From assembly GCA_000004985.1 (NCBI GenBank), contig GG738879.1: DNA of 64,000 bases, one strand, 5' to 3'. Numbering within the stretch: position 1 is the first letter of the stretch; each line of letters starts with the position of its first letter. The position numbers and the translations under genes are program-made. The DNA comes from Naegleria gruberi (lineage: Eukaryota). Shown piece after piece: positions 7,126-63,761 of this stretch. Under the pieces are notes generated by a model. That model ran no database searches. It had not been told where the DNA came from and saw only the letters and a list, made by a program, of their open reading frames with translations.

Positions 7126-7197
7126 GTGCGCTTAGCTCAGAGGAAGAGCATCGGACTTCGAATCCGAGGGTCGTGGGTTCGAACCCCATAGTGCATA
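7126..7197 (+). tRNA. tRNA-Arg, anticodon UCG.
   Basis: 72-nt cloverleaf: acceptor GTGCGCT/AGTGCAT with G1-U72 and G5-U68 wobbles, D arm GCTC-AGAGGAA-GAGC, anticodon stem TCGGA/TCCGA with loop CTTCGAA (U33, UCG, A37), variable GGGTC, T arm GTGGG-TTCGAAC-CCCAT, discriminator A. A T5 run follows immediately downstream as a Pol III terminator. Confidence 0.8.
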
Positions 7198-8664: not shown

Positions 8665-8736
8665 TACAGACAATGGGGCTCGAACCCACGACCCTCGGAT
8701 TCGAAGTCCGATGCTCTTCCTCTGAGCTATGCCTGC
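8665..8736 (-). tRNA. tRNA-Arg, anticodon UCG; second copy, in inverted orientation.
   Basis: The reverse complement gives GCAGGCA-TA-GCTCAGAGGAAGAGC-A-TCGGACTTCGAATCCGA-GGGTC-GTGGGTTCGAGCCCCAT-TGTCTGT-A. The D, anticodon, variable and T arms match the 7126 copy except for one T-loop base. The acceptor stem is entirely different. A T7 terminator lies downstream on the minus strand. Confidence 0.8.
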
Positions 8737-41364: not shown

Positions 41365-43455
41365 ATGACTTTTTTATGGATAACCAATTTTCACAACAAA
41401 ATGACTAGACAACAAATGCTAAACTCGAGTAAGCTTTCAAAGCTTGCTATATTATTATATTTGATTGTGACTATTGTGTTTGCCAACCTTGTACACAGTG
41501 ATGATAAATCTGAATTGAACATGGCTTACACTGTAGATCAGACGAATTACATTCCAACCTCAGTCTCGTATTCTAATTCTGCTAATAACAATGGTGCTTT
41601 AACCAAATCAAGCACAACCACTTACTATTCCTCTTCAACGTCTGGCTATCCATATGGAGGCGGGGCAGTTCCTATTGGTGCAGCACCAGTTGCACAACCT
41701 ATTTTACAACCTCAACAAGTGATTGTTAATCCACAACCAATTCCACAACCTATTCCTCAAACATATGCTCAACCAATTCCTCAACCATACCCACAACCTA
41801 TTCCACAAGGTGTTCCTATAGCAGGAGGGGCAGTTCCACAACCAATTCCTCAACCTATTCCACAAGCTGCTCCGTATGCTCAACCTCTTATTACTCAACA
41901 ACCTATTCCTCAACCTCTTCCATATGCAGGAGGAGGTGTTCCAATTGCAACAGGAGCCCCATATGCTCAACCTCTTCCATATGCAGGAGGTGGTGGTGTA
42001 ATTTATGGAGGTGGAGGTGGTGTTGTAGGTGGAGGTGTTGTTGCTCAACCAATTCCACAACAAGCTCCAATTATTTACTCTGGAGGTTGTAGTGTTTATG
42101 GAGGTGTTGGATGTGGAGGTACTATTCCACAACCTATTCCACAAGCTGTCCCTATTGCTCAACCTTTACCCCAACCTGTTCCTCAACCAATCTTGCAACC
42201 TATTCCACAAACTTATGCCCAACCTATTCCACAACCTCTTCCATATGCAGGAGGAGGCATTGTTTATGGTGGAGGTGGCGTAGTTTACGGAGGTGGAGGT
42301 GGTGTCATTGCTCAACCAATTCCACAACCAGCTCCAATTATTTACTCTGGTGGCTGTGACGTTTATGGAGGCGTTGGATGTGGAGGTGGTGGTGTAGTTT
42401 ATGGAGGTGGAGGTGGCGTAATTTATGGAGGTGGAGGTGGAGGTGGTGTAATTTATGGAGGTGGAGCTGTACCTATTCAACCATTTACAGTTGACACTGT
42501 TGCACCTGTATCCTTAGTGACATATCCTCAAACAGTGGTAGTGAGTCCACCTGTAACAGCAACACCTTGTACCACTGGTAAATGCTCTTCTGTGGATACC
42601 TACGTACCTAATGTTATAGTCCCAGCTTCAGCAGGTGTAGCAACACCTTGTACCACTGGCAAATGTTCTTCTGTGGACACCTACGTACCTAATGTTATTG
42701 TCCCAGCTTCAGCAGGTGTAGTAAGCGTTCCCCTCAAGAGTAATAATGTTGTTGTTGGATCTGGATCTACAACTGCTTCTACTTGTTTATTGACAGTAAG
42801 AGGATTGACCACATTAGCTCTTAGCCCATCCTCATCCATCTGTTCTTCAGTTGTCAATTGTATAATTACTTACATTTCAGATTATGTGCAATATGCTATC
42901 AATGCCCTCAATTACGACAGTAGCACTTCTCTCACTGTGAACTCTCAAGATGAGAATGTAGATTTGTGGAAGGCTTTAGAGAATATTGCTGGAAGTATTA
43001 GCGAAGATGGATATGGACCTGCAACAACTACAGCTTCAGCAACATCAGCTGCTTGCACCAATGATTTGGCTCCTGTTTTTGCCAGAACCTCTAAAGGTGG
43101 AGCAGTATTTGTTAATTCATGCTGGGCAAGAATGGCAAAGGCCTATCCACCATTTGTTCCAGTTACACTCAAACCTGGTTCTGTTTCTAGTGGAGGTCAA
43201 TTTGATTGGCCAGATGATGTTCAAAATCCAAACTATGTTGTTGCCAATTACTATGTATTGAGCGCTTTCAGATTGACAAACTTTGCCTTGTACTACTTTA
43301 GACCTTGTATGAGTGCAAGCACTTACACTGTTCTCTCTAATGCCCTACAATCTTTGAACGACATTTCAGCCTTAATAACTGCTGGCAATGTTACAAGAGC
43401 AAACGCCTTATTGAGTGATTTACAAAAAAGTTTGAGCACATTATCTAGTGCATAA
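41365..43455 (+). CDS. Secreted or cell-surface repeat protein with a signal peptide, PIPQ/Pro-Gln modules, Gly-rich YGGGGGV modules, duplicated Cys-containing units and a Ser/Thr/Ala-rich C-terminal domain.
   Basis: The second Met (41401) starts a canonical signal peptide, MTRQQMLNSSKLSKLAILLYLIVTIVFANLVHS. Internal repeats at the DNA level: a PIPQ...YGGGG...CxVYGGVGCGG module duplicated (about 41700..42130 and 42180..42400), and a tandem duplication of about 75 nt (TPCTTGKCSSVDTYVPNVIVPASAGV, twice) at 42541..42720. Confidence 0.6.
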   Translation: MTFLWITNFHNKMTRQQMLNSSKLSKLAILLYLIVTIVFANLVHSDDKSELNMAYTVDQTNYIPTSVSYSNSANNNGALTKSSTTTYYSSSTSGYPYGGGAVPIGAAPVAQPILQPQQVIVNPQPIPQPIPQTYAQPIPQPYPQPIPQGVPIAGGAVPQPIPQPIPQAAPYAQPLITQQPIPQPLPYAGGGVPIATGAPYAQPLPYAGGGGVIYGGGGGVVGGGVVAQPIPQQAPIIYSGGCSVYGGVGCGGTIPQPIPQAVPIAQPLPQPVPQPILQPIPQTYAQPIPQPLPYAGGGIVYGGGGVVYGGGGGVIAQPIPQPAPIIYSGGCDVYGGVGCGGGGVVYGGGGGVIYGGGGGGGVIYGGGAVPIQPFTVDTVAPVSLVTYPQTVVVSPPVTATPCTTGKCSSVDTYVPNVIVPASAGVATPCTTGKCSSVDTYVPNVIVPASAGVVSVPLKSNNVVVGSGSTTASTCLLTVRGLTTLALSPSSSICSSVVNCIITYISDYVQYAINALNYDSSTSLTVNSQDENVDLWKALENIAGSISEDGYGPATTTASATSAACTNDLAPVFARTSKGGAVFVNSCWARMAKAYPPFVPVTLKPGSVSSGGQFDWPDDVQNPNYVVANYYVLSAFRLTNFALYYFRPCMSASTYTVLSNALQSLNDISALITAGNVTRANALLSDLQKSLSTLSSA
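42541..42720 (+). repeat. Near-perfect tandem duplication (2 x about 75 nt) inside the coding sequence of the secreted repeat protein.
   Basis: ..gcaacaccttgtaccactggtaaatgctcttctgtggatacctacgtacctaatgttatagtcccagcttcagcaggtgta.. is repeated immediately, with a few synonymous or near-synonymous changes. Confidence 0.8.
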
Positions 43456-48016: not shown

Positions 48017-49097
48017 ATGTCGATACATCGTTCTGGATCAAAGCCACTCATTGTTTCAGAGGCGTATGGCAGAAAGTTGACACCAACAACATCAAAAACC
48101 AACAATGAAGATAGTTTATCAGATTCTACTCCATATTTTGATGCTTCGGCAATTAAAGATTTTAATACTAAACCTAATAATAATGGAGGTGGATCAAATA
48201 ATAATAATGGGTCGTGGACTGATACAGTAGCAAGGAGATGGAAGAAATTTTCTAGTTGGACGATCGGAAATAGAAGATTAAAGATGTATATTTATTCAGT
48301 TCTAAAGGTAGGTTGTTGGAAAGGATAAACTAAACTAAATCACACGAAAGTTTGCTACTATTACATACGTTCAAGCAAATGACGTATTGGGCAAAGCTTC
48401 AAACACAAATAATCAAACAGAGAAGGATATGCAAATGGCATTCAAAGTTCTTTCATATCTATACATGGCTATTTTAATTTTACTTTTCACTTTCAGATAT
48501 GTTAGAGAATTGATTGCAATTTCCAGGAAGAAACCTCTTTCAATTTGGGTAAACTGGATTGAATCATCTGTTTTTTTAACCTATATTTGCTATTCGATTG
48601 TTACTTCTGTCATTCACGTTGTTTACATTACAAAACACTACAATGCTGAATATGAAGAAAGATTATTGCATCCAGAGAATTTTGCTTACAAAACAGTTAC
48701 ACTTGAGGAAGAGTTGGCAGTGGAAATTTTGGAAGTTTTTGTTCACTTGTACATCATCTTTGATAAGTCAACGCATTACCTACATGCAGGACACAGTGTT
48801 TCTCTATATTTGGCTAAAGCTCAGCATATTCCAAAGAATGCTCATCCAGGGCATGATCAAAATCAAAACCATTATCATGATGCCTTCGATCATCATGCTC
48901 ATCTTTACACAAATCAATCTGAAACTGATGACGAAGAAAAGAGTGATGAAGTATATGATGATTTTATTGGAAAACCAAAAGAAGCCACAAAACCAACAAC
49001 AAGAAGACACACCGTTATGGCAATGACACCACCAAGACAAAATATTGATTCTGAAATTTTATTGGAAGAGCCAAGATTGGCATTTAATAAGTTTTAA
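48017..49097 (+). CDS. Hypothetical membrane protein with a His-rich acidic tail. Probably two exons: join(48017..48307, 48351..49097) with a 43-nt intron.
   Basis: Track ORFs 48017..48328 and 48387..49097 are in different frames. A GTAGGT donor at 48308 (phase 0) and the first AG after an ACTAAAC branch-like motif (48350) join them in frame. An alternative acceptor at 48374 is also in frame. Two TM helices follow. Confidence 0.5.
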
Positions 49098-49136
49098 TTG
49101 GAAAATAGAGTTGTGTGAAGGGAATGCACATCAATA

Positions 49137-49288
49137 AAGATCAACTTTCCAATTTTGATGATTAGTTATATTTGAAAAAACAATTAAGGACATGTAGAGC
49201 TAAGATTCTGCACCATCAAAAGAAAAGTCTCCCACAAGCATAAAGGAGAATAGTAGCCTTCAGGAATGTCGAAGTTGATTATTTTACC
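49137..49288 (+). repeat. Degenerate duplicate of the promoter and 5' end of the FHA gene (original at about 50182..50400).
   Basis: About 80% identity over about 150 nt, including the ATG region (acaattaaggacATGtag against acaattaaggacATGaag) and ..aaagaaaagtctcccacaa..cataa.ggag... The copy has an in-frame stop straight after the ATG and internal deletions. Confidence 0.6.
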
Positions 49289-50264
49289 TTTTTTTAATGC
49301 TTTTCTTGGTATATCAACTCAATGTCACAAAAGTCAGTACTCATCATCTTATGTCTTGGATTTGCAAATCCAATGAAAAATGCTTCTTTTTGAATCAGAA
49401 TCTTAGCTCTTCTTTGAAACCATACTTTCAACACTAAAAGCCATAGCTCCAGAACAATCGCATAAGGTCAATATAGTTTTCTCTACTTTTGATGGTCGTG
49501 GAATCACCAACAAGGAAGGGATTGCTGGAAGCTGATTACTATTGAAAAATAAATCAAACACGAAGTATCTGATTTGGTTAAAAGTAATCTAGAACATGAT
49601 GATGGAAAATATAGCCTTCTATTAACAGGATCGTTGCTAACTCCAATACGTGAAGGAAGCAATTCAAAGATAGCCCCACACAACAATCTGCAATTTAGAC
49701 ACTCTGTTGTTGGATTAGAGGTACATTTTTGTAAGCACTCTTCATTGCCCATTTGTATTTTAAATGGTAAAGTTGTTTGTCATGGAAAACCCTTATTTCC
49801 TCTGAAACTTTTTCCTAATGAAGATTGGGCAATAGTAGAACTCGATAAAACAAGTGGTGAATACATTTTCGAGAATTCTTTTGGAAGTTCAAACCATGGC
49901 AATAGTTTCGGTGTGATCTAAAAGGTGTTTTGGATTTTGATAAATCGGAGTGTTTATCTGTTAGTAAGACCTCATGCTGAGTAGATAGAGTCTCAAAAAT
50001 TACCGGCTCATCACTGAAAACATTTTTTTAAGGGTTGTTGTAATTTTAAACTCGAATTAAGTATGTTCAAGAGTTTAGACCCTTAAGGCATTGAGAGAAC
50101 AATAATTCAAAAATTGTTCTTCTTATTCAACACTCAGGTTCAAAAGATAATGTCGCAACCACAACCATTTGCTACAAATCAGTAAAGATCAACTTTCCCG
50201 CCAATTTTGATGATCAGCAAAAATTTGAAAATAATAAAATTAATTAAAAAAAACAATTAAGGAC

Positions 50265-51686
50265 ATGAAGAAGCTTTCTCAACAAGCCTCTGCATCATCA
50301 CAGAAAGAAAAGTCTCCCACAATCATAAGGGAGGACATTAGCCTAGCTACTAAAAGGAATGTTGAAGCTGATAATGAATTAGACTTTACCTCATCATCTT
50401 CAACTAGTAAGGGGGTTGTGTTTGCACTCTTGAAAGGAACAAAACGAACAATTGATATTAATCAATCTAAGGTTTTTATCGGAAGAGATCCTGTTACTTG
50501 TGAGGTGTGTTTGGCAAATTCACCAACAGTCTCAACAATGCATGCACAATTGGAATTTATTGATGATAATTCAAAAGAAAAGCCTAAAGTTGTTTGTGTC
50601 TTGAGAGATTTAAAATCAAAGAATGGAACACTAGTTAATAACGTTAAAGTGAGTCAAAATTTATCATCGATTATTAGGAATGGAGATTTGATTCAATTCG
50701 GACAAGATGAAGTATTTAGATTCGAGATTGGACCTTTTGTTTCAGAAGTTGTAAACAAAGCACCAATCATTGATGCAGATGAATTTACTTCAATAGACTC
50801 ACCTCTCTCATCAGATTTTGAAATTCAAGAGAAAGTGAAGGAAATAACATCTAAGGAAGAAAATGAAACAGATTTTATTGAAACAGAAGGAGATAAATTG
50901 GAAGACACATTCTTTGAAACAATGGAACCAACAAATAGACTCATTGATAGAGAGGTTTATAAGGATGAAAGTCTGAGAATGCACTTGTACGATGAAATTA
51001 ACGATCTAACCTCTGAACTCTCAACTAAATTAAACCTTCTCAATTCCGTCCTTAGTGAAGACACTCCTTACCATAGAAATCAAGTCCCTTTCGAGTTTTT
51101 AAAGTCCATGCACAACCTTTCTGAAAGTATTTCATTCCTCACCAGAGACACGATATTCGAAAGACAATCAGAAATCAAATTTAGAGAACTAGAACAGTAT
51201 GCAAACTCCTTAGAAAGAAAGCTCGTAAATTACAAAAAACTTGGGAAGGATTCTGAAGTTTCACTTGCTCAATGTAAAAAATTATACACCAAATCTAAGG
51301 ATGAAAGCAATAAGAAGATTCATGACCTTACCACCTCCTTACACGGAAGATTGGATGAAATACAACTTCTTAAAAAAGGACTTTCCAATGAAAAAGATAT
51401 AACCAATTCTTTAAAAACAGAAATTGATAGACTCAAATATAGACTATCAATTGAGGTTACACAAACAGAGAGTCTAAGAAAATCCAACGACATTCTCAGA
51501 CAGCAACTGCTCAAAACACAAGATTACTCCAACTTTTTACACAAGGAAATTTTGAAAATAGAGGACTTTCCACTGAATCTCAAAATTTCCAATCTAGTTT
51601 CTAATGAAACAAAACAATCACCAAACCTTAATCAAACGATCAATGCAACTTCAATAATTGAGCAATATAAAAACATGGATCTATAA
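50265..51686 (+). CDS. FHA-domain protein with a long C-terminal coiled coil.
   Basis: FHA signature ..VFIGRDPVTCEVCLANSPTVSTMHAQLEF...LRDLKSKNGTLVNNVKV...IIRNGDLIQFG. An acidic linker follows, then a heptad-rich C-terminal half. ATG context aggacATGaag. Confidence 0.7.
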   Translation: MKKLSQQASASSQKEKSPTIIREDISLATKRNVEADNELDFTSSSSTSKGVVFALLKGTKRTIDINQSKVFIGRDPVTCEVCLANSPTVSTMHAQLEFIDDNSKEKPKVVCVLRDLKSKNGTLVNNVKVSQNLSSIIRNGDLIQFGQDEVFRFEIGPFVSEVVNKAPIIDADEFTSIDSPLSSDFEIQEKVKEITSKEENETDFIETEGDKLEDTFFETMEPTNRLIDREVYKDESLRMHLYDEINDLTSELSTKLNLLNSVLSEDTPYHRNQVPFEFLKSMHNLSESISFLTRDTIFERQSEIKFRELEQYANSLERKLVNYKKLGKDSEVSLAQCKKLYTKSKDESNKKIHDLTTSLHGRLDEIQLLKKGLSNEKDITNSLKTEIDRLKYRLSIEVTQTESLRKSNDILRQQLLKTQDYSNFLHKEILKIEDFPLNLKISNLVSNETKQSPNLNQTINATSIIEQYKNMDL

Positions 51687-52066
51687 AATTAGCACTTTAA
51701 GAATTGTGTCACATCTATTTTCTATGTTAATATTGCGGAAGTGCTACTGAAGATGCACCATTTTCAAAGAAATTGGAAATTGGCTCTTTGGAGAATTCTA
51801 CTAATATGATGGCTTTATTACCTTCTTAATTTCCGAATCCTCAAGAATGGAATTCCTCATTGGATGATGTTGTTGAGAGGCAGTAAGGAGAGGAGAACTG
51901 GGTGATGATTTATTCCTTTATTATTATTAATCTTCTTCTTGTTTGCACAACATATCGAAATGATTGATCAGTTCTTTGTCAATATTCACACCATCCACTA
52001 AAAAAAGTTTGTCAGAAATGAATCGTGAGTATGTAGCGTTGACACAATATTGGTCTTTAACTTTCT

Positions 52067-52726
52067 CTAATAATTCAAAGCACTCATCTCATTATGGAGA
52101 AGTTTTTGCATTACAGGTGTGTTTGCATTATTCAGTAAAATAGAATCAGAGGGATTTAACTTTTCGAAAAGTTGACCAATTTCTTCTTTTGTTCCATCTA
52201 TTACCATTAATTTCCCAAATAAATAAAATTTGTGATGGCCTAGATTAAGATTACCAATATGAAGAGATATTTTGGGGTTTTGTTTATGTTGGAAGACTTG
52301 GCGTAAGATAATGGTTGTAGCAAAGTATTCTTGGTGTGTTGGTTTGGCTTGTTGATCGCAAACATTATTGAATATATGTTTGGTGAGTTCAAATAGTGAA
52401 TTTTTTGAAGCAATTTCGTAAGAGATGATACCATTATCCTGATGCTGTTTTGTTTTACCTTGGTATATGAATGAATTTTTTGTTTCCAAATTACTACCAT
52501 GAGCAGTAATAGTTTGTCTTGTTTTTGGCCAATCACCTTTTTCAATAGAGCATACATTAGGTTCTATTCGAAAGTAATTGTCCACTATTATTTCATTTCT
52601 AACGTGTTTAAAATCGTTTAACGGGGGCTCACTTTTATTGCAAACCAATTTAAAGTACTTTGCCACGACGGTGTGTTCTGCTGTTTTAATTTTTTCCACG
52701 TTATTTGCATCTAAGGGTGGAGTCAT
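52067..52726 (-). CDS. Hypothetical protein of 219 aa.
   Basis: Clean ORF with ATG context aataaaaaaATGact. No domain recognised. Confidence 0.4.
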   Translation of the reverse strand: MTPPLDANNVEKIKTAEHTVVAKYFKLVCNKSEPPLNDFKHVRNEIIVDNYFRIEPNVCSIEKGDWPKTRQTITAHGSNLETKNSFIYQGKTKQHQDNGIISYEIASKNSLFELTKHIFNNVCDQQAKPTHQEYFATTIILRQVFQHKQNPKISLHIGNLNLGHHKFYLFGKLMVIDGTKEEIGQLFEKLNPSDSILLNNANTPVMQKLLHNEMSALNY

Positions 52727-52870
52727 TTTTTTATTAAGGATTCATAGTTTGGAAAAAATGGAAGATCAATACATATTTCTCGTAAAAAATTCTTTAGTGA
52801 AATTTTTTTTCCTAACAACTACTTTATCAATTCAGGTGGCACACATTTAGCCAATTAATCCTGGTAAACA

Positions 52871-54727
52871 TTAGTAGAAAGCACTTTGAGGTCGTGGATT
52901 AGGAATAATTTCTTTTGATTCAAAATACGTAACCATTTGTTTGGGTATTTCAGCTAGCACTTCAGAAGCTAATTGTGTTAAATCAGAACATTCAGAAAAG
53001 CTCACAAATTGAACAATGTCTCTTGTCATTTTAGTTCCATTACTGTGAATGAGTGGTTCATCATCAGCATCGAATTTTCTACAACTTGGGAAACTTCTAC
53101 CACCAATACCAACAATTACAATTGAGATAGGTTTGTCATTGGCCTCTATAATTGAATCGATTGTGCCTTGCATGTCAAATGCATCCCCATCAATAATTAA
53201 CAATAGAATATTGTAGAATTGTTGTTGTTGAGTAACAGGAGGAGTTCTCTCAACGACATGTTCAATAACTCTATAAAAGTCATCTCCTCGATAAGGCTTT
53301 CCAGTTTTTGGATTAGTGGCACTTCCCATATCTCCAAATGATAGTCTTGGAACTGCCTTCTCATATGCTTCAAGTATTTCTCCTACACAAAGTTCCTCCT
53401 TATCTGAGAGTGACAGATTAAACATTGGATTCATTTTTAATTCCTTATCTATCCTTGCACCATATCCATATGCTTTCGAATAATTAGTGAAAGTGTTAAA
53501 AGTCAAATACTTACCACCATATATCTTGTCAGAATCATAAGGTTCCAAAATTTGCAAAACTTGTGCAAGGGCTTGTTGATAGTGATTCTTCTTGGAACTT
53601 AAATAATGGAGGGAGCTACTACTGGTGAAACCACCGTTTGATGCAGTAAAATCAATGCCAACTGATACTGAAATGTTACATCCTCCCATAATGTGGTCTA
53701 AAAATTGATCTTGGCGGTTTTCCTTCCTGGCAACAAAGGATTGGTAGATTTGATATTCTGGATTTGGTACTGGAACATGTTCTATCTGAATAGTACATAT
53801 TTCAAACTCAAACACTCCAGAGTTTTTGTAATTCTTCTTTTTTTTTTGAAGGGATGGCTCAATTAAATGGAATTGTTTTACATTATTATTCAGAACTTGG
53901 TCCAAATTATATTTAAATTCTCCAATTAAATCATCCTTCGAGTACTTGTCCTTGTCATAGCATGTCACAAATATATCCTTGTTGTAATCATTGTTGAATT
54001 CATCTAAATTGAGTTTAAAGGATGTCCAAGAAGGGTTCAGATTCTTATAGATAACTTCACTTGTGTAGAGTTTGACTCTTCTTCCAGCAACTTCCTTTTC
54101 AAAGAAAAAGTAACAATCTGACTTTCCAAAGAAATCCTTCTTATCTAATCCAATACCTTTACATTTGAATAGAACTACTTTCATATCTGAATTAACAGTA
54201 GTTGGTATCTCAGAACGTAGAGCATTCAATTCAGCCGAGCTCATACCAGAAAATTTCAAAGTGGCATTCCTTTCAGAATCAGCATTATTAGTGTTATTCG
54301 AATCCGATTGCCTAACAACCTTCTCAACATGAACAAAGACCTCACCTTGTACTTTCCCACTCTTCAAAACAAGATCTAACTTTAATTTACCATCCCTCGA
54401 GCAAACAGCTTGTGATAATGAAAACTCTCTAGTTTTGCCAATAAGCTCACTCTTATTTCCACCATCGTCATCATAGATTTCAATATAAAATTTCTGTACG
54501 CACTCAAAATAATAATGAACACTAAACTTGGTCTTGAACACTGGATTATGATTATTCTGAATTGTTTCGGTATTGCCCAGAAACGTGAATTTATCAACAC
54601 CACCCGATGATGAACTTGTGTTACTTTCGTACAGTTTAGCAAACGGATCAGACTTGGACATCAAGTCCATTCTAGCCAAATTGCAACATGATAAATAAAT
54701 ATCAACAGATTCTCTGGCGGAATTCAT
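52871..54727 (-). CDS. Copine: two N-terminal C2 domains plus a C-terminal vWA (copine A) domain. Intronless.
   Basis: C2A begins VDIYLSCCNLARMDLMSKSDPFAKLY. C2B has ..VLFKCKGIGLDKKDFFGKSDCYFFF... The vWA region carries the copine-specific VGIDFTASNG motif and ..PTNFE.. surrounding sequence. Confidence 0.85.
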   Translation of the reverse strand: MNSARESVDIYLSCCNLARMDLMSKSDPFAKLYESNTSSSSGGVDKFTFLGNTETIQNNHNPVFKTKFSVHYYFECVQKFYIEIYDDDGGNKSELIGKTREFSLSQAVCSRDGKLKLDLVLKSGKVQGEVFVHVEKVVRQSDSNNTNNADSERNATLKFSGMSSAELNALRSEIPTTVNSDMKVVLFKCKGIGLDKKDFFGKSDCYFFFEKEVAGRRVKLYTSEVIYKNLNPSWTSFKLNLDEFNNDYNKDIFVTCYDKDKYSKDDLIGEFKYNLDQVLNNNVKQFHLIEPSLQKKKKNYKNSGVFEFEICTIQIEHVPVPNPEYQIYQSFVARKENRQDQFLDHIMGGCNISVSVGIDFTASNGGFTSSSSLHYLSSKKNHYQQALAQVLQILEPYDSDKIYGGKYLTFNTFTNYSKAYGYGARIDKELKMNPMFNLSLSDKEELCVGEILEAYEKAVPRLSFGDMGSATNPKTGKPYRGDDFYRVIEHVVERTPPVTQQQQFYNILLLIIDGDAFDMQGTIDSIIEANDKPISIVIVGIGGRSFPSCRKFDADDEPLIHSNGTKMTRDIVQFVSFSECSDLTQLASEVLAEIPKQMVTYFESKEIIPNPRPQSAFY

Positions 54728-54809
54728 CTTTGAGCGGTGGTATTTACCACTATTCGAAACTATTTTTTTGTTGAATTTGAAATTAAAAAATCTAACAAAA
54801 TACTATTTT

Positions 54810-54920
54810 CACACTATTTGAATCAATGCCACTTCAATATTTGAGAAATCTAAAAACACAGATCTATAAAATTAGCACTTCAATAATTGTCACACATCTC
54901 TTTTCTATTTTAGCATTGTA
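54810..54920 (+). repeat. Degenerate duplicate of the last coding codons and 3' UTR of the FHA gene (original at about 51627..51745).
   Basis: ..gaatcaatgccacttcaatatttgagaaatctaaaaacacagatctataaaattagcacttcaataattgtcacacatct.. against ..cgatcaatgcaacttcaataattgagcaatataaaaacatggatctataaaattagcactttaagaattgtgtcacatct... About 80% identity. It lies in the spacer shared by the copine and alpha-tubulin genes. Confidence 0.6.
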
Positions 54921-54945
54921 GTGGGAGTTTACAGCAGTTCGTTGT

Positions 54946-54974
54946 ATTTTTCCCTCCAAAATTTTCCCTCCAAA
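54946..54974 (+). promoter_or_regulatory. Direct tandem repeat TTTTCCCTCCAAAA (x2) about 150 bp upstream of the alpha-tubulin ATG. Candidate promoter element.
   Basis: tttttccctccaaaattttccctccaaaactt lies in the 396-bp spacer between the divergently transcribed copine and alpha-tubulin genes. A function is inferred only from position and repetition. Confidence 0.3.
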
Positions 54975-55117
54975 ACTTTACAATTTGTTGTACGGTTGAA
55001 GATATCGCTACCCTTTAAATACAATTCACTTCTTCCCTAACCAAATTTTTCAACAAAAAAAAAATCGCTCGTCCTCCATTATAGAGAAACTTGCAAAACG
55101 CTCGTAAATAATAATAA

Positions 55118-56485
<1,368 letters not shown>

Positions 56486-56631
56486 ATTAATTACTCCATT
56501 GAGACTTTTTCAAAAAATTAAGACGTATTCTGTTTAAATCATTTTAGATTCTTTCTGTCACGAATAAGCCAACCTGGTTAAATTAAAAAAAATATTGAGC
56601 TTATCTAATATTATTGAGATGGAAATAAAAT

Positions 56632-57252
56632 TTATAGCTCGAATAAAGATTGCCATAATGATTTTGGTTGTGTCTTGTAAATCTCATTAGATTGTTTCTT
56701 CCTTTTTCGAGATTCTTCTTGTGATTGAGATGAAAATTTAGAATTTGTTTGGGTATGAGATAAACTAATCATTGGGGTATTATCATTCCACTTGGAGTTG
56801 ACAATTTCAAATTTTCTCTTTTGATTTCGTTTATCTAAAAGTGTTGATCCTGGAAATACACTAGATGAAATTCCCTCCGATACAGTGAGAGCAGCAACTT
56901 GTGGAGGTACATCATGTATTGCTTTTCTCTGTATTGGTTTATCTTTTTTTACATTAAAATTTGTATCGGCCCATTCCAAACCTCCACCACTTCTCTCTAT
57001 ACTTGAAGCCACTGATGTTGTTGGGCTTGAAGCCAATATAATTTCTTGTTCCTCATCCTCATCATCATTTAAATAATTATTTACAGGTCGTTCCAAAAAC
57101 ATGAAGGATTTACTCTTTGTGAGTACACCTTTACGATCCGAATTGGCTGTTTTACTTCTTTTTACATTTTGGTTTTGTTTTTTGACTTGTCCAATACTTG
57201 GTGGTTCACTGTAGCGAGAAACACCACATAACGTAGAGTAGAGATTAGGCAT
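56632..57252 (-). CDS. Hypothetical basic/acidic protein of 206 aa.
   Basis: ORF with ATG context caaaaaaaATGcct. Charged, S/T-rich, no recognisable domain. Confidence 0.4.
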   Translation of the reverse strand: MPNLYSTLCGVSRYSEPPSIGQVKKQNQNVKRSKTANSDRKGVLTKSKSFMFLERPVNNYLNDDEDEEQEIILASSPTTSVASSIERSGGGLEWADTNFNVKKDKPIQRKAIHDVPPQVAALTVSEGISSSVFPGSTLLDKRNQKRKFEIVNSKWNDNTPMISLSHTQTNSKFSSQSQEESRKRKKQSNEIYKTQPKSLWQSLFEL

Positions 57253-57573
57253 TTTTTTTGATAATTATTTGAAATTCAAAATTATTAATTATTTCTTCCA
57301 ATTTAAACAATCAGTAAGCAAATATCGTCCTCTGTAATTGGTCTCCAACCATGTTCAATGAGATTAAAACTGACTGAGAAATTAATTGAAAATACTTGAG
57401 GGAAATAAAAGTTGTATTGCCAACTAACTGATTTGTTGTCAGTGTGTTTGCCAATCAATCATGAAAACTTTCTTGAATTCCATTTTGTGATATTTTATTA
57501 CAATATATAGCTTACAAATACGATAAACAGATTGGAATTATTGCTAAATTGCAATTAAATGTTTCTGAAATAT

Positions 57574-59386
57574 TTACAATTCCCAATCATCATCACTTTC
57601 CTCATCTTCACTGGAATATTCAATATTACCACGACGAAGTTCCATAATACCTGCAATCTTGGCTGCCAAATTGTTTTGATCACTTTCAGCCATATTCTTG
57701 AATTCTGGTAAATCTTCTTGCTTTACATTTCTCAATTTCTTATTTTTAATTTCAGAAAGCATGTCAACACCACCTGAGGCACCACTATCAGAATCAGTTG
57801 TTGGACTTGCAACAGATACTCTAGGCTTAACAGAGTGATCGACAACTGGTGGAGGAGGAACATTGGTTGGTGGAGGAGGTACAAAACCACCAACTCCAAT
57901 GGCACTTGAGCCAGAAGGAGCATTTGAGCTAGCTCCCTTGAAAGGAGGTGGTGGAGGGGTTGATCTAGTTCCTGGGGTTGGTGGAGGTTGTGGTCTTCCA
58001 CTTGGAACATCCAAAGAAGGAGGTGGGGGAGCATCTGATGTGACAGTGACAAGTGTCTTCATTAAAAATTTGGCAGTTTTCTTATCTTTCAATTCAGCTT
58101 CTGAAATGCCTGCCTTCTCAAATATGGTTTTTAGCTCTTGGGGTATTTCTGTAAATCCACTTTTTGGATCAAAACCAATGTGTGAAACGTGTTTAAACTT
58201 GTCAACCTTTGGTCCAGAAATTTTGATTTGTGACCGGTCAGGAATTTGGTCCTTATTCTTTGTTCCGAAAATCTTGGAGAATAAACCACCTCCACTACTG
58301 CTACTACCTCCACTACTGCTATTGCTAGGAGTGTGTTTCTTTTCAGGTTCCTTATGGGAAGAAGTAGTATGTACAGAGCTACTGGCAGCAATTGAAGTAT
58401 TGACAGCTGTTGGCTTGTTAGCAACTGGTGGAGGAGTGGATGGAGGAGGATTAGTCTTCTTCACTGGAGTAGGTGGGGCAGTACTGGAACCAGTACCAGT
58501 TGGTGAAGAAGAAGAAGAATCAGAACTGTCACTTCTCATATTAACAGAAGGTTTAGTTGAAGGCAAACTTGGAGTTGAACCACCATTGATAGAACCAGTT
58601 GCTTTCAAACGAATGAGTTGACAAACTTGCTTGGCAAATTGATCAGCATCAAATCTTTCAGCAAATAACAATCCAACAAAACCTTCATCAGATTCGAATG
58701 CATGAAAATTGGAAGAAAGTGTTTGATAGTCGAAACCTTCATAACATTCTTGTTCCATAGTAACTGATTTACTCTTCAAATCTACCAACCGAATCATTAC
58801 TACTGATTGCTTTTCAACCAATGTAACTGTCAAAATTCCATAAGAATTGGCATATGACCATTGATTACCATTGTTGGCTTTGTAGAGACGAACTGGTGCA
58901 GAATACTTGATTTCGAAAATGTTTGGTAAAGACAAGACACCTGCAGCGAGTTGTACAGCACGTTTACTTCAAGTTTGACAAGATTTGGGGAAATTAAAAT
59001 TGTTTTTTTTAAAATTTAAAGTATTTCATCTTTCAATTTTGATTTGGCAAGTAAACTCAACTCCATTTGAAAAGAATCTGTAACGATAATATTTTATTCA
59101 ACAAAATGCTAATTTCTCGATGGAATTAAGGTAGTTTTGAAATCTGACTTCAAATTATGAATCCTCGCATTGACATACCCCTTGGGGTGGCAGCATTCTC
59201 AAAAATATGTAGAAATGAGTAAGAACGAGTTGTTAGGTGTTGTTCTATTGAAATGCTTATTTTGGATTTGACAGCAGAAGAACAACAAAATTTTTTCTAA
59301 ATAATTTATTTTCTTTCAAAAAACGCGTCAAATTTGAAGTAAACGTGCTGTAATTCGTCAGGGAGAATGTTGATTCTTGTTGTCAT
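57574..59386 (-). CDS. WASP-family actin nucleation-promoting factor with WH1/EVH1, CRIB, poly-Pro, WH2 and acidic-Trp modules. The N-terminal coding region is interrupted by a TA-flanked inverted-repeat element. Restored CDS = join(59386..59351, 58953..57574), 471 aa.
   Basis: WH1: ..IKYSAPVRLYKANNGNQWSY...VVMIRLVDLK... CRIB: ISGPKVDKFKHVSHIGFD. Pro-rich region with many PPPP runs. WH2-like GGVDMLSEIKNKKLRNVK. Acidic C-terminus DEESDDDWEL. Upstream of the element an ATG (aaaaaaaaATGaca, 59386) encodes MTTRINILPDEL. That matches the region preceding WH1 in N-WASP (LLTPQEN) and is in frame only if 58954..59350 is removed. Confidence 0.7.
58954..59352. mobile_element. MITE-like non-autonomous DNA element, 395 bp plus flanking TA/TA. 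26-bp terminal inverted repeats (TACAGCACGTTTACTTCAAGTTTGAC, one mismatch). AT-rich non-coding interior. Possibly a Tc1/mariner-type insertion in the WASP coding region.
   Basis: Plus-strand 58954..58979 is the reverse complement of 59327..59352 (25 of 26 positions). Both ends are bounded by TA. The interior has no ORF. Precise removal of the element plus one TA restores the WASP reading frame. Confidence 0.6.
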
Positions 59387-59585
59387 TTTTTTTTAACTTT
59401 ATTATATTTTTATTGATGAGTGACGTTTGTTGTTCCTTTGCTATTGTAACCTTTTTGTATCAATCTTTTCAATTTTTATCTTAGAAAAGTAATATTATTC
59501 TTGTTGTCATTTGTTTATTGGGTACGCAACGTTCCTAATTTGCGTTTTTGCGACGAGCTACGTATTTTTAAGGAACAAACAACGA

Positions 59586-59657
59586 TCCCGTGTGGTCCAA
59601 TGGCTAAGATACCTGGCTCTCACCCAGGAGATCCGGGTTCAATTCCCGGCACGGGAG
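59586..59657 (+). tRNA. tRNA-Glu, anticodon CUC.
   Basis: TCCCGTG-TG-GTCC-AATGGCTA-AGAT-A-CCTGG-CTCTCAC-CCAGG-AGAT-CCGGG-TTCAATT-CCCGG-CACGGGA-G. The loop has U33, CUC, A37. The T arm is CCGGG/CCCGG. A T5 terminator follows directly. The D stem has 3 bp plus one mismatch. Confidence 0.8.
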
Positions 59658-59701
59658 GATTCAATTTTTAGGCAAGATAATGAATAATTTTTTTTAGTTT
59701 A

Positions 59702-61022
59702 TTAGATTTCAGTTCTTGTCTTATTAACACTACTCTCCTCACTTGAACTAAATTCTGTCATTTCAATCATTGAAACACTAATGCTAATCTCACACACATC
59801 ATTTGCTTGATGAAGCACCTCTCCAATGGTTGATGATTTTTGTGAAATTTCACTTCCACTTGCGCTGTCAGGTTGTTGAACAGTTTCTGATTTTGCAATT
59901 TCTTCTTTCGAATTCTCCTTATGAAGCAAGTATTTGAGGAGAAGTCTATTTCTCAAAGAAGACACCAAACTTGCACACATGAAACTCAAACCAAGAACTA
60001 AATAAATACCAAAGAGTACCAAAATTACTGCAAACCAAGGTTTCACATAAAAATTGAGAACTGTATAAGGAAATTCGGAAACTAGACGATTTCTCATACA
60101 TGTGAGCATCCATACAAAGTAAGCACTTGGGAAACACATGATTGTGAACACGTGCCACTTTCTATATTGAAAATTAGACAATAAAAAGTCAATCAAGCTC
60201 AATATTCCAGTCACTCCATGATAAGCCACAGAACTATCACAAATTCATTAACATTTTTCAATGATCATCAAGAAACAACTTACATGTAATCTACTCCATC
60301 TTCCTCCTCTCCCAACCTTGCAAACCAGTAACCAATCGAAACAACCAAAGAAGCCACCAAATTCAACTCTCCAACAATCCATATAATACCAGAGAGTGCT
60401 CTCAATACAATCACCAACCATTTGTTTCTTCTCTTCAACACACTAATAGATTCTGAAGTGAAATTCACAGAGAAATCCCTAAACACAATCAAGTAAAACA
60501 TTCCAAACACGGTTTGAGAGCTGAAATATGTTGTAAATACCATTACCATATGATGGGTAAAATAAGTTGAGGATTTGAGAAGTACATTGTCCGTCTCATA
60601 CTTTCTCATGAACGGATACGAAATGATTGTTCCAATAATCCAACAACAGACTGTAAATCTGAAAATGTACAGAGCAATTGTGATGTACTTGTTGTAGCCA
60701 AATGATTCAAAGACGAATTGTGAAGAGTTTCTCAAGCTGTGTGAATGTTGTGTGTTAAATATTTTAAAATTCAATTCTAATCAACTTACCCATCAAGAAG
60801 TAAATCTTGCTTTCTGATTTCATTAGAGTTAGTGGATTGGTTGTCTGGTTCCTTCTGATCACGGTTCTTTCTCCTAGTGTAAAAGAAACCTTTCACTAGA
60901 AAGAAACCCACCGAAACCATAAAGATGAAAGCAAATGTCATACTGCTCTGTACTAAGAGTAGAGAACTAATTAAATTAGCACCTCTTGTTTCAGAAGATG
61001 AAGGAATTTTATAAGGGTCCAT
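59702..61022 (-). CDS. Multi-pass membrane protein (about 405 aa, at least 7 helices). Three exons: join(61022..60790, 60736..60284, 60233..59702); introns of 53 nt (60737..60789) and 50 nt (60234..60283).
   Basis: Three consecutive track ORFs (60786..61022, 60280..60774, 59702..60229) are linked by two GTAAGT introns, both phase 2, with CACAG and GATAG acceptors. The spliced frame is continuous (...DLLLDG-LRNSSQF... and ...GVDY-I-SVAYHGVTG...). ATG at 61022. Confidence 0.6.
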
Positions 61023-61669
61023 TATAGAATTGTTTGAATTGTTGTTTTGTTTTTTATGAAATTATCAATTCTTTGGTGTAAACTGTTGGGTTTTATACGA
61101 AACCCAACAACATGTGTTTGTCCATTAGATTCCACAGAAAAAGCAAGGTTTCTGTTCGTACCTGTTTAAAACCATTCAAAAGGAAACCGAATTTGTGTGA
61201 ATTTTGTAAAGTGACTGGTAGTTTTGTTAACAAAACATTACAAAACAGTTCGGTTTCCATAAATAGGTTCATTCTATATTCGCACTGAACCTTTGTTTGC
61301 ATAATCTTCGTAAGTACTTATTCTGTAAATAGCTAGCGAACATTCTGGAATCACTTATTTTGTAAAAAAATTCATTTCAAGGGCGGCAATTTACAAAAAT
61401 CCCTTTCGGCTGTTTAGTCTACCAATTACAGAACTTTCTCTATTAAAAATTATTTATTTCATTGTTATGGTAAGCAGAGCTCAATCACTTGAATATTTTC
61501 GACACATTGTGCATGTGACACTTCATGACGTTTCTATTCGAAAAACGTCCAACTTGCAAACTTACTCAAACAAGCAGCAAGAAAATATTCGTGCCGAAAC
61601 TGAGATTAGGAAACAAAAGAATTGCATATTTTGACTTTACTCAATTGGATGAGTAAGAATTAAGAAACA

Positions 61670-61951
61670 TTATCGTTCCTTCTTTCTAGGAGTTGGTGGA
61701 GTTACCACAATTGGACACGTGCTTATTGAAGTTGCTGTCTCACTATCATCATCATCATCTTCATTACAATTTGGATTTGTCTTCTTGGGTGGCTTTACAA
61801 CATGCATATCTTCAGTTCTCACCATTAGAAATCCATCTTCATCCTCTGGAGTGGAAGCCAATGAATTTGTCTCTTCATTGATTGAATATCTCGAATAGGC
61901 CATAATTGTGTTTGCTTTCTTTTCTGTTAGGAATTGAGAACCCATCATCAT
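61670..61951 (-). CDS. Small acidic hypothetical protein of 93 aa. Possibly an exon of a larger gene.
   Basis: Begins ATGATGATG (MMMGSQF...). Acidic and Pro-rich. No support beyond ORF length. Confidence 0.3.
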   Translation of the reverse strand: MMMGSQFLTEKKANTIMAYSRYSINEETNSLASTPEDEDGFLMVRTEDMHVVKPPKKTNPNCNEDDDDDSETATSISTCPIVVTPPTPRKKER

Positions 61952-62429
61952 GATGAATCATTTAAGTGGTTGGAGAGAGAAGTACCTGGTGAGAATCAGA
62001 GTCAGCAGATGTTGATGCTTGTATTATTCTGTGCTTTTTTATAAGTGATAGATGTTGATGTTACAAGTATGTGGGAGGCCTTTGCATTGTTGGCGTTTTC
62101 TACTTGTAGCATATTCATATAAAAATGTGTGTTCTGTATTTGGAGAGAGACATCTACTCAGAATCTCAATACAGTTTCTATCGCTTCTATTTAGTGAGGA
62201 GTCAGTATCTCTCTAAAATTCTCGCTTCATGCAATCATGCATGTCTCTAAGGTTTGGCAAGAATGCTTTTATTTACAAGTGTATTGTACCACTAAGGTAG
62301 TCCATTGCATTTATTTCTTAACAAATCAAGCATCCAGAAGAAGATCCCTCAGAAATGTCCTTTAATGTTTGGTCACTAGAATGGAATGTATTCAGTCAAT
62401 ATATATATGTGTGTTACTACTTTAAAAAC

Positions 62430-63636
62430 TTACATAACAGTTGGGTCTAGTGCTTCTCCATACTCTAGAATGATTCCATCTCTACTCTTGAGAAGGGATG
62501 GAGGTAGTTCAGAGAGTTTCTTGTCTGTCGGCAATTTAACTCCATCAAAATTGAATAAATTCAATCGCTTACTGAGATCCAATTCTGTCGAGTTGTTATT
62601 CTTAACTTTTCCTTGTTCAGCAATTTTATCCAAAACTTTTCCAACTGACCAAGTCTTACTGAAGAACATGTGAATTGGCTGTATTTGATTATTGATTGGG
62701 AAATAAACATCCAAAAAGTATCTATCCTGAGTTGCAATTGAGGATTGACCAACTGGGAATAGAGGTTTGTTCTGGAATTGATTAGATAATAATTTTCCAG
62801 CATCCTTTCTCTGACCTTTCCATTTGTTTGCAGTTATAGGAACAGAGGATCCACTCTTGATATTAAAAGGTCCAATACTTGATGAGCCGCCTGATCTTGA
62901 TTTTTGTTTTTTCAACGAGTCACAATTATGATCGAAATCCAATCTATGTCTATATTAAGAAAGCAAATTAATTCTCCACAAAATCTAATTCAATCACACA
63001 CTTACTCTACACAAAATGATTTGTTACATCCTTTACATTTGATAATTGACTTTTGACCACATCCTCCCAAAGCACACATTTCAGCACTACTAAGAGAAGA
63101 AGTTGGCTGTTTTGATGCATTTTGATTCATTGCTGGACACTTTCCACTGCTAATGTGTCTTTCAACAACATCATTAGGATTCTCTCTTTCACTGGCACGA
63201 AATGGAAGAACCTGATTGCATAGAGGACAAAATGGTGCAACAACTCCTTGTTCTTGCAGATAGGAACATTTGTGAGCATCAAAACTTCTATGCTAAATAT
63301 CAAGATAGTGTTATTATACATTGAATTCCGTAATTATATTTAAAAATTCCGAATTATTAATATACAATTATTTGTTGTATAATATTTCCGATTAATATAC
63401 ATATAATACACAATTACAAATCATCAATTAATAATATTAATATACAACAAAATCCATCATAATACAAAACAACATTCATCATCCAATAAAATCATCATCC
63501 ACCAATACCTTCTACTACTACTACATACATTCAAACAAAATGTCTTTCCACAATGAGTACATTTGAACGGAAGAAAATCCTTCTCATGGCATCCATCAAA
63601 ACAACAATGTGCTCCAAGATCGTAGAATTCAGTCAT
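62430..63636 (-). CDS. AN1-type zinc-finger protein (ZFAND1/Cuz1-like) with two AN1 fingers and a C-terminal ubiquitin-like domain. Three exons: join(63636..63529, 63292..63006, 62949..62430); introns of 236 nt (63293..63528) and 56 nt (62950..63005).
   Basis: Both AN1 fingers are split by introns at the same position and are restored exactly by splicing. Finger 1: C(TH)CGKTFCLN | HRSFDAHKC, with a GTATGT donor and TTTAG acceptor. Finger 2: CKGCNKSFCVE | HRLDFDHNC, with a GTAAGT donor and TATAG acceptor. Each gives C-x2-C-x4-C-x2-H-x5-H-x-C. The C-terminal roughly 80 aa are ubiquitin-like (..KVLDKIAEQGKV...LNLFNFDGVKL..). Confidence 0.75.
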
Positions 63637-63761
63637 TTTTTTTTCTTAAATGTATTTTAATTTGTATTGACATTTAAAATTTTGTAATCTTTTTTTCATT
63701 ACCTATTTTCAAACAAAAATTACAAGAAATCAATATTGATGATATGATGATTCTCTTTTAA

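What the first reader, a model, noticed from the sequence alone, without database searches (positions are those of the whole stretch)
49137..49288. Degenerate copy of the FHA-gene promoter and 5' end about 1 kb upstream of the intact gene
About 150 nt at 49137..49288 match 50182..50400 at about 80% identity. The match covers the ATG and the first roughly 25 codons of the FHA-domain gene, but with ATG-TAG and internal deletions. A matching 3' fragment lies downstream (see the next finding). The intact gene, and two other genes, therefore sit between a 5' and a 3' remnant of a paralog. This suggests a segmental duplication followed by decay, or an insertion of several kb into an ancestral copy.
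Basis: seen in the sequence. Interest (0 to 1): 0.55.

Follow-up and report, generated by a model that had tools for sequence, protein, structure and literature searches.

The report
Dead duplicate of FHA gene start
This is a decaying, non-functional copy of the promoter and first codons of a Naegleria gruberi gene, left where the gene used to begin when about 0.9 kb of foreign DNA was wedged in; it is an ordinary rearrangement scar, but an unusually readable one.

Summary
Window 49127-49289 (A') matches 50175-50391 (A), which is the 90 nt upstream plus the first 42 codons of the intact FHA-domain gene (N. gruberi NAEGRDRAFT_69605). Identity is 89.5% over aligned bases. A' has nine deletions, reads ATG-TAG, and has no other copy in the 64 kb. 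A second pair, B 51639-51735 and B' 54822-54918, is 86% identical and ungapped.

Synteny shows that both relics sit where the gene's ends used to be. A related metagenome contig has gene U followed by FHA after only 57 nt. N. lovaniensis has FHA followed directly by alpha-tubulin.

The DNA between the relics and the intact gene is not decayed FHA sequence:
- X (49290-50174) is a broken, partly inverted pseudogene of the unrelated N. gruberi NAEGRDRAFT_80674 family.
- Y (51736-54821) holds two intact opposite-strand genes: a 219-aa gene and a copine.

The most economical reading is that two blocks were inserted at the two ends of one gene. Each is flanked by a direct duplication of its target, 217 nt and 97 nt in the intact copies. 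This could have been one complex event or two events of similar age. Insertion of a paralog-bearing block into the old copy is not excluded.

A keeps a TTTCCCGCC box conserved upstream of FHA in four species; A' has lost it. Interest is low to moderate.

The parts
48387..49097 (+). Gene U, last exon. It encodes a small membrane-like protein with no Pfam family and is the ancestral upstream neighbour of FHA.
   Evidence: ORF. Homologues P0122-P0129 in N. gruberi, N. lovaniensis, Willaertia and metagenomes. In L010 the U stop codon is 57 nt before the FHA ATG.
49127..49289 (+). A': decayed duplicate of the FHA upstream 90 nt plus the first 42 codons. This is the finding.
   Evidence: 145/162 aligned bases identical, 9 deletions, E 3e-18, unique in the window.
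49194..49199 (+). Relic start codon followed at once by a stop (ATG TAG).
   Evidence: Sequence; alignment.
49290..50174 (.). X: inserted block between A' and A. It is unrelated to FHA.
   Evidence: No similarity to the FHA body, to N. lovaniensis L001 or to the rest of the window. No terminal inverted or direct repeats. No tRNA or Rfam hit.
49300..49561 (-). Pseudogene pieces of the NAEGRDRAFT_80674 (P0130) family: aa 125-154, 225-243 and 278-341. Residues 155-224 and 244-277 are lost. The stop codon is at 49294-49296, 5 nt from the end of A'.
   Evidence: tblastn of P0130 and P0131, E 1.5e-4 and 5e-5.
49568..49873 (+). Same pseudogene, aa 18-127, on the opposite strand. This is an in-place inversion of about 300 nt and lies inside the open 115-codon ORF 49574-49921.
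   Evidence: phmmer E 5e-18; tblastn E 1.4e-22.
49864..49905 (-). Same pseudogene, aa 1-14. The match is weak, but it lies exactly where an in-place inversion predicts.
   Evidence: tblastn, 8/14 identical, E 0.58.
50175..50391 (+). A: the intact counterpart of A'. It is the working promoter and leader plus codons 1-42 of FHA.
50194..50202 (+). TTTCCCGCC box (E2F-like, TTTSSCGC), 71 nt before the ATG. In A' a 4-nt deletion removes it.
   Evidence: The motif lies 34-71 nt upstream of the FHA ATG in the window, L010, N. lovaniensis and Willaertia. There are only 4 such motifs in the 64 kb.
50265..51686 (+). Intact FHA-domain plus coiled-coil gene (NAEGRDRAFT_69605, 473 aa).
   Evidence: Pfam FHA, E 1.4e-14. 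Exact match to XP_002675195.1. 38% identical to N. lovaniensis C9374_010158.
51639..51735 (+). B: last 16 codons, including the stop, plus 49 nt of 3' flank of the intact gene.
51736..54821 (.). Y: inserted block between B and B'.
   Evidence: Absent between FHA and tubulin in N. lovaniensis. No terminal repeats.
52067..52726 (-). 219-aa gene of unknown family, inside Y.
   Evidence: ORF. No Pfam, PDB or viral match. The single-sequence structure model was unusable, pLDDT 31.
52871..54727 (-). Copine gene (two C2 domains plus a copine/vWA domain), inside Y.
   Evidence: Pfam. Identical to the N. gruberi predicted protein P0003 apart from three mis-predicted introns.
54822..54918 (+). B': relic of the FHA 3' end at its ancestral place, 254 nt before the tubulin ATG.
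   Evidence: 83/97 identical to B, with frame and stop position kept. Present in L004. In N. lovaniensis the FHA stop is 286 nt before the tubulin ATG.
55124..56485 (+). Alpha-tubulin gene, the ancestral downstream neighbour of FHA.
   Evidence: Pfam. Synteny with L001. Identified as XP_002675196.1.

Best explanation
A' is an inert scar. In an ancestor of N. gruberi the order was K-channel(-), U(+), FHA(+), alpha-tubulin(+), with very short spacers. In the N. gruberi lineage two blocks of foreign DNA, both carrying genes on the opposite strand, were placed at the two ends of the FHA gene. X (0.9 kb, a fragment of a NAEGRDRAFT_80674-family gene) went in at the 5' end. Y (3.1 kb, a 219-aa gene plus a copine) went in at the 3' end. 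Each insertion duplicated the stretch of target it entered: 217 nt (A'/A) and 97 nt (B/B'). This is what is expected if breaks with long staggered ends are filled in, or if a replication fork switches template and re-enters a little upstream. The copies still joined to the gene body (A and B) stayed functional. The outer copies (A' and B') were left at the old gene boundaries and decay. Because A carries only 90 nt of upstream sequence, that stretch, with its conserved TTTCCCGCC box, must be enough to drive the gene. Shown: the repeats, their positions, the empty sites in relatives, the unrelated content of X and Y, and the decay of A'. Inferred: the breakage and repair mechanism, whether it was one event or two, and the promoter role of the box.
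For: The repeats are real, unique in the window and sharp-edged. There is an empty site for X: L010 has U then FHA with a 57-nt spacer. There is an empty site for Y: N. lovaniensis has FHA then tubulin with a 286-nt spacer, inside a block of conserved downstream synteny. X is a rearranged pseudogene of another family, and Y is two unrelated intact genes. No FHA-body homology lies between the relics and the inserts. The two pairs have statistically equal divergence, 10.5% against 14.4%, Fisher p 0.43. They are the only dispersed direct repeats in 64 kb, and both involve the same gene, which points to linked events. A' shows a deletion bias (9 deletions to 1 insertion), an immediate stop codon and loss of a motif conserved in four species. 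B keeps the conserved C-terminal IEQ where N. lovaniensis has VEQ, while B' has drifted to FEK. A copine relative in another genomic context (L005) fits the idea that Y moved here.
Against: No genome was found that carries only one of the two insertions or the exact pre-insertion state in a close relative. The closest relatives' contigs stop just short of the relics: L003 starts at 54949, and L011 turns chimeric at 49122. L010 is an unidentified metagenome organism. Target duplications of 100-200 nt are far longer than those of any transposon class, and no donor locus was seen. N. lovaniensis has U elsewhere, on the far side of an inversion, so its U-FHA junction cannot serve as an outgroup. 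The same layout would also arise from a block carrying a second FHA copy landing inside the old one.
Confidence: 0.62

Rival explanations
1. Self-into-self insertion. An earlier duplication placed a second FHA copy (promoter to 3' flank, about 1.56 kb) between X and Y at another locus. That 5.5-kb block then landed inside the original FHA gene and replaced its middle. On this reading A' and B' are the true ends of the old gene, and the working gene is the paralog.
For: It yields exactly the observed order A'-X-FHA-Y-B'. The relics sit at the ancestral positions. All genes in X and Y lie on the same (minus) strand, as expected if they came from a single donor block.
Against: It needs two events plus the coincidence of a gene landing inside its own paralog, with clean loss of about 1.1 kb of gene body and no residue. 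The one word-limited homologue search with FHA returned a single N. lovaniensis protein and missed the Willaertia orthologue, so copy number in relatives is not established. In N. gruberi the only other FHA copy on record is 244/245 identical and lies on the 11.5-kb alternative haplotype scaffold.
Confidence: 0.2
2. Inversion followed by an offset re-inversion, or another multi-step rearrangement with staggered breaks. FHA and its downstream genes were inverted away from U, leaving A' behind. They were then brought back with breakpoints shifted by the length of X. A similar process acted on the 3' side.
For: The U|FHA junction is a re-used breakpoint: N. lovaniensis differs from N. gruberi and L010 by an inversion that ends exactly there. 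X itself contains a 300-nt in-place inversion. The pseudogene is cut off within 5 nt of A'. Staggered-break duplications at inversion breakpoints are documented in Drosophila (PMC1885836, listed and recalled from knowledge, not read here).
Against: It needs four or more breaks at nearly the same places. No inverted copies of A or B exist in the window. N. lovaniensis shows no breakpoint duplications.
Confidence: 0.1
3. Tandem or segmental duplication of the whole FHA gene into two or three copies, followed by decay of the outer copies.
For: Duplicated gene ends lie in direct orientation on both sides of an intact copy.
Against: X and Y should then be decayed FHA sequence of the same age as A' (about 88% identical). 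They show none. Instead they encode an unrelated pseudogene and two intact unrelated genes on the other strand.
Confidence: 0.04
4. The similarity is a shared regulatory or UTR motif, chance similarity, or an assembly artefact.
For: The upstream part is A/T-rich and contains a short conserved box.
Against: E values are 3e-18 and 2e-23, with only two copies each in 64 kb. The match runs through 42 codons of coding sequence. A paralogous tubulin locus (L002) lacks B'. B' is present in an independent assembly. The copies have diverged by substitutions and indels, unlike assembly duplicates.
Confidence: 0.02

Closest known systems
Breakpoint duplications from staggered double-strand breaks (model of Ranz et al. 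2007 for Drosophila inversions, PMC1885836; the paper was listed but not read, so the description is from recalled knowledge)
   Same: Stretches of tens to thousands of nt at a rearrangement breakpoint, often including gene ends, are duplicated. One copy stays with the working gene and the other decays as a gene fragment.
   Different: There the two copies are inverted and flank an inverted segment. Here they are direct and flank inserted blocks. No inversion of the FHA gene relative to U and tubulin is seen in N. gruberi.
Templated insertions by replication template switching (FoSTeS/MMBIR), from general knowledge
   Same: Foreign segments, often inverted, are inserted with re-copying of a short stretch of the original template on return. 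Several switches can occur in one event. X is itself a patchwork with an inverted piece.
   Different: No junction microhomology could be read at this age of decay. No donor loci were identified. The mechanism has not been demonstrated in Naegleria.
Transposon target-site duplications
   Same: Direct repeats of the target flank an inserted block, and relatives have an empty site.
   Different: The repeats are 97 and 217 nt in the intact copies B and A, against 2-20 nt for transposons. X and Y have no terminal inverted or long terminal repeats and no transposase, integrase or reverse transcriptase.
Truncated (fragment) pseudogenes or gene relics
   Same: A' is a non-coding remnant of a gene's 5' end with a premature stop, frameshifting deletions and a lost promoter motif.
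   Different: There is no evidence that a complete second gene ever existed. The relic marks the original gene's own old boundary, not a dead paralog elsewhere.

Membership tests
Target duplication flanking an insertion | Two copies in direct orientation immediately flank the inserted DNA, with sharp homology edges. | tested here: met
   A'/A flank X and B/B' flank Y. All four copies are on the + strand, and nothing aligns beyond the edges.
Target duplication flanking an insertion | Relatives show an empty, uninterrupted site. | tested here: met
   L010 has U-FHA with a 57-nt spacer. N. lovaniensis has FHA-tubulin with a 286-nt spacer. Both are distant relatives; no close relative was available.
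Target duplication flanking an insertion | The inserted DNA is unrelated to the target. | tested here: met
   X is an 80674-family pseudogene. Y is a 219-aa gene plus a copine. Neither has FHA similarity.
Transposable element insertion | Terminal inverted or long terminal repeats, and a transposase, integrase or reverse transcriptase. | tested here: not met
   Terminal alignments of X and Y score no better than shuffles. Pfam finds only C2 and Copine domains.
Decayed full-length paralog (tandem duplicate) | Residual homology to the gene body between the 5' and 3' remnants. | tested here: not met
   None by blastn, tblastx or Smith-Waterman. X against the gene body scores 47.1, against a shuffle mean of 37.1, sd 5.3 and maximum 50.9.
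Genome-wide promoter or UTR repeat | Many copies next to unrelated genes. | tested here: inconclusive
   There are exactly two copies of each in the 64-kb window, and none at the paralogous tubulin locus L002. The rest of the N. gruberi genome could not be retrieved.
E2F-type promoter box | TTTSSCGC consensus close upstream of the start, conserved in orthologues. | tested here: met
   It lies 71, 43, 42 and 34 nt before the ATG in N. gruberi, L010, N. lovaniensis and Willaertia. There are 4 hits in the whole window.
E2F-type promoter box | Bound by an E2F/DP factor and required for expression. | not testable with these tools
   No binding or expression data were available. The literature search found nothing on E2F sites in Naegleria.

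The most novel reading that the evidence does not exclude
Both insertions arose in one replication-based event that alternated between two templates. The fork left the FHA locus after copying A and copied X from a donor locus. It then returned 217 nt upstream and copied the whole gene. It went back to the same donor where it had left off and copied Y, then returned 97 nt upstream. This would interleave two loci while keeping every gene but one intact. The outer relics may persist because, in this very compact genome, they still carry signals for the neighbours: AATAAA at 49133 for gene U, and upstream sequence for copine and tubulin in B'.
Probability: 0.15. Interest if true: 0.5.

Novelty: new member of a known kind. 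Interest (0 to 1): 0.3.

Why it matters
The value is mainly local. It is a clean, datable example of how gene order changes in a compact protist genome without killing the gene at the breakpoint, because the gene's ends are duplicated and the outer copies are discarded. It also acts as a natural promoter deletion: 90 nt with a TTTCCCGCC box conserved across two genera appears to suffice for the FHA gene, which gives a concrete element to test in Naegleria, where promoter elements are, as far as I know, little characterised. The U|FHA junction appears to be a re-used breakpoint. For annotators, the ATG at 49194 and the 115-codon ORF at 49574-49921 are relics, not genes.

Tried and rejected
- The exact-protein contig look-up for the window's FHA and copine, and for the N. 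gruberi models P0003 and P0005, found nothing on record, so no further N. gruberi sequence could be read.
- A JGI metagenome scan with the FHA alignment gave only unrelated 48-50% GC loci with FHA-domain repeats.
- L003, a relative 92% identical across the tubulin region, starts at window 54949, 31 nt past B'.
- L011, from the same sample, is chimeric with a bacterial Lon protease from window 49122 onward, 5 nt before A'.
- In Willaertia magna (L012) FHA and U are near each other but in a different order and without tubulin, so it is not usable as an outgroup for the junctions.
- The N. lovaniensis 139-aa gene upstream of FHA is not related to the X pseudogene.
- There are no breakpoint duplications in the N. 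lovaniensis region.
- There are no pseudogene pieces of the 80674 family in Y.
- There are no tRNA or Rfam families in 48900-55200.
- The bacterial promoter/terminator scan is irrelevant for a eukaryote.
- There are no viral relatives of the 219-aa or copine proteins.
- The 219-aa protein has no Pfam or PDB match, and its single-sequence AlphaFold model was unusable (pLDDT 31), so no fold search was run.
- I first thought the FHA gene was unannotated in N. gruberi. The exact look-up showed that it is XP_002675195.1.
- B' shows zero differences between strains, but this is not evidence of constraint, because the baseline divergence is only 0.75%.

Full report
**Source of the window.** The window is eukaryotic, with 34.8% GC and long intron-poor ORFs. 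The copine at 52871-54727(-) is identical, residue for residue, to a Naegleria gruberi predicted protein apart from three stretches removed by mis-predicted introns. The FHA protein, the 206-aa protein and the alpha-tubulin are exact matches to N. gruberi entries on a 384,281-bp scaffold: XP_002675195.1 (NAEGRDRAFT_69605), NAEGRDRAFT_69608 and XP_002675196.1. Further N. gruberi DNA could not be fetched.

**The observation.** Relaxed self-comparison confirms the reported match, 49127-49282 against 50175-50375, with E 3e-18. A global alignment extends it to 49289/50391:
- 145 identical and 17 mismatched positions, so 89.5% identity over aligned bases.
- Nine deletion runs (55 nt) and one insertion in the upstream copy.

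I call the upstream copy A' and the intact one A. A consists of 90 nt before the ATG of the FHA-domain gene (50265-51686; Pfam FHA, E 1.4e-14) plus its first 42 codons. In A' the ATG is followed at once by TAG (49194-49199).

The companion repeat is also real. B (51639-51735) is the last 16 codons, including the stop, plus 49 nt of 3' flank. B' (54822-54918) matches it at 83/97 positions with no gaps, E 2e-23.

In the whole 64 kb these are the only dispersed direct repeats, and each has just two copies. The homology edges are sharp on all four sides. An independent metagenome contig 98.2% identical to 52727-55036 also contains B' (L004), so B' is not an assembly artefact.

**Where the relics sit.** The only homologue returned for the FHA protein was N. 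lovaniensis C9374_010158, at 38% identity. In that genome the FHA gene is followed directly by alpha-tubulin, with 286 nt between stop and ATG. The genes further downstream (a 206/234-aa gene and a zf-AN1 gene) are syntenic with the window, and no copine or 219-aa gene intervenes. In the window the relic stop codon of B' lies 254 nt before the tubulin ATG. B' therefore marks the old 3' end of FHA.

On the other side, a search with the upstream gene U (48387-49097) found a JGI metagenome contig, L010, with 38% GC. It has the same order as the window: K-channel(-), then U(+), then an FHA orthologue that starts 57 nt after the U stop codon. In the window A' starts 30 nt after the U stop and its relic ATG lies 96 nt after it. 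A' therefore marks the old 5' end of FHA.

N. lovaniensis cannot be used for this junction. Its U orthologue lies beyond the Arf and 484-aa genes in the opposite orientation, so an inversion ends exactly between U and FHA. In Willaertia magna FHA and a U-like gene are 3.3 kb apart in another order.

**What lies between the relics and the gene.**
- X (49290-50174) shows no similarity to the FHA body, to the N. lovaniensis locus or to the rest of the window. Its 115-codon ORF matches N. gruberi NAEGRDRAFT_80674 (P0130, 354 aa, on another scaffold) at E 5e-18.
- Mapping P0130 onto X gives a minus-strand pseudogene:
  - aa 1-14 at 49905-49864 (weak match)
  - aa 125-154 at 49561-49469
  - aa 225-243 at 49468-49412
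  - aa 278-341 at 49440-49300
  - stop codon at 49294-49296
  - aa 18-127 on the plus strand at 49568-49873
- This geometry is what an in-place inversion of about 300 nt inside a minus-strand gene predicts, together with two internal deletions.
- Y (51736-54821) carries two intact minus-strand genes: a 219-aa protein with no detectable family, and a copine.
- Neither block has terminal inverted or direct repeats, a transposase-like gene, a tRNA or an Rfam family. Neither has viral relatives.
- A copine relative with 77% DNA identity sits in a different context on another metagenome contig (L005). This fits the idea that Y was relocated here.

**Interpretation.** The layout is U | A' | X | A-FHA-B | Y | B' | tubulin. 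Decay of extra whole FHA copies is excluded, because X and Y are unrelated to FHA.

The most economical account is that X and Y were inserted at the two ends of one gene, each with a direct duplication of the entered target: 217 nt, now 163 nt in A', and 97 nt. The inner copies stayed with the gene and the outer copies were left to decay. Three points support linked timing:
- The two pairs have indistinguishable substitution divergence, 10.5% against 14.4%, Fisher p 0.43.
- They are the only such repeats in 64 kb.
- Both inserts carry opposite-strand genes.

This suggests one complex event or two closely linked events. Filling-in of long staggered breaks, or replication template switching, would produce this pattern. 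That step is inference.

It gives the same final order and is not excluded. It needs an extra duplication, a coincidental self-hit and clean loss of the old gene body.

The event is older than the split from the 98%-identical metagenome strain, which already has B'. The relics are still 86-90% identical, whereas the FHA orthologues of N. gruberi and N. lovaniensis are only 38% identical as proteins. The event is therefore much younger than the split from N. lovaniensis.

**Function.** A' is best read as dead:
- It has an immediate stop codon.
- It has frameshifting deletions, with a 9:1 bias towards deletion.
- It has lost a conserved box.

That box, TTTCCCGCC (TTTGCCGC in N. lovaniensis), lies 34-71 nt before the FHA ATG in N. 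gruberi, L010, N. lovaniensis and Willaertia. Only four matches to TTTSSCGC occur in the whole window. In A' a 4-nt deletion removes it. The box matches the E2F consensus, but no binding or expression evidence exists, and the literature search found none for Naegleria.

Because A carries only 90 nt of ancestral upstream sequence, that stretch is presumably a sufficient promoter. The left end of A' keeps an AATAAA 36 nt after the U stop codon (AGTAAA in A; TGTAAA at the matching place in L010). It may still serve as the poly(A) signal of U. This is untested.

B keeps the C-terminal residues conserved with N. lovaniensis (IEQ against VEQ), while B' has drifted to FEK.

**Comparison with known kinds.**
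- Closest is duplication of breakpoint sequence by staggered breaks, described for Drosophila inversions (PMC1885836, listed and recalled, not read). There the copies are inverted.
- Templated insertions by replication template switching are also close.
- It is not a transposon insertion; that feature was tested and not met.
- It is not the remnant of a tandem paralog; that was also tested and not met.

It is a new instance of a known kind of rearrangement scar. Interest is low to moderate.

Noticed in passing
window 49568-49873 (+) within 49294-49905 (-): The X block is a pseudogene of the N. gruberi-specific NAEGRDRAFT_80674 family. It has an in-place 300-nt inversion and two internal deletions. 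The inverted piece still forms an open 115-codon ORF (49574-49921) that could be mis-annotated as a gene.
   Followed up: yes
window 50194-50202; L010 4307; L001 9959; L012 about 5396: A TTTCCCGCC / TTTGCCGC (E2F-consensus) box lies 34-71 nt upstream of the FHA orthologue in four species of two genera. Only 4 such motifs occur in the 64-kb window.
   Followed up: partly
window 49133-49138: AATAAA lies 36 nt after the stop codon of gene U, inside A'. The matching positions read AGTAAA in A and TGTAAA in L010. It may be the U poly(A) signal and a reason why the left end of A' is well kept.
   Followed up: no
L001 and L009 (N. lovaniensis PYSW02000040.1) against window 48387-63660: N. lovaniensis differs from N. 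gruberi and L010 by an inversion of the block FHA...484-aa gene. One breakpoint lies exactly between U and FHA, the same junction that received X in N. gruberi.
   Followed up: partly
N. gruberi 11,476-bp scaffold (proteins P0122, P0134, P0005): A second scaffold carries near-identical copies of U, of FHA residues 220-464 (244/245 identical), and of the copine C-terminus fused in one gene model to the WASP-like gene. The WASP-like gene corresponds to window 57574-58935(-). This is probably a gap-ridden alternative haplotype of the same region.
   Followed up: partly
window 7126-7197 (+) and 8665-8736 (-): Two tRNA-Arg(TCG) genes in inverted orientation flank the ORF at 7790-8563. They account for the 110-nt inverted repeat seen in the self-comparison.
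   Followed up: yes
window 13064-14041 (+): A distant member (21% identity, E 3e-4) of the same NAEGRDRAFT_80674 family that gave rise to the X pseudogene.
   Followed up: no
window 41590-42390: Internal tandem-like repeats, with blocks offset by about 270-450 nt and 63-75% identical. They are probably repeats within a coding sequence.
   Followed up: no
L011 (ENA ERZ27254845 k141_3317201): A chimeric metagenome contig. It matches the Naegleria U 3' end up to window 49122 and then switches to a GC-rich bacterial Lon protease sequence.
   Followed up: yes
window 52067-52726 (-): The 219-aa protein has HGS and YFA motifs reminiscent of the PARP/ADP-ribosyltransferase H-Y-E signature. It has no Pfam or PDB match, and its structure model was unusable.
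   Followed up: partly
window 54822-54918 against L004: B' shows no differences from the 98%-identical strain. The adjacent A/T-rich spacers show 7 differences in 94 nt and 4 events in 118 nt. With a baseline divergence of 0.75% this is not significant.
   Followed up: partly
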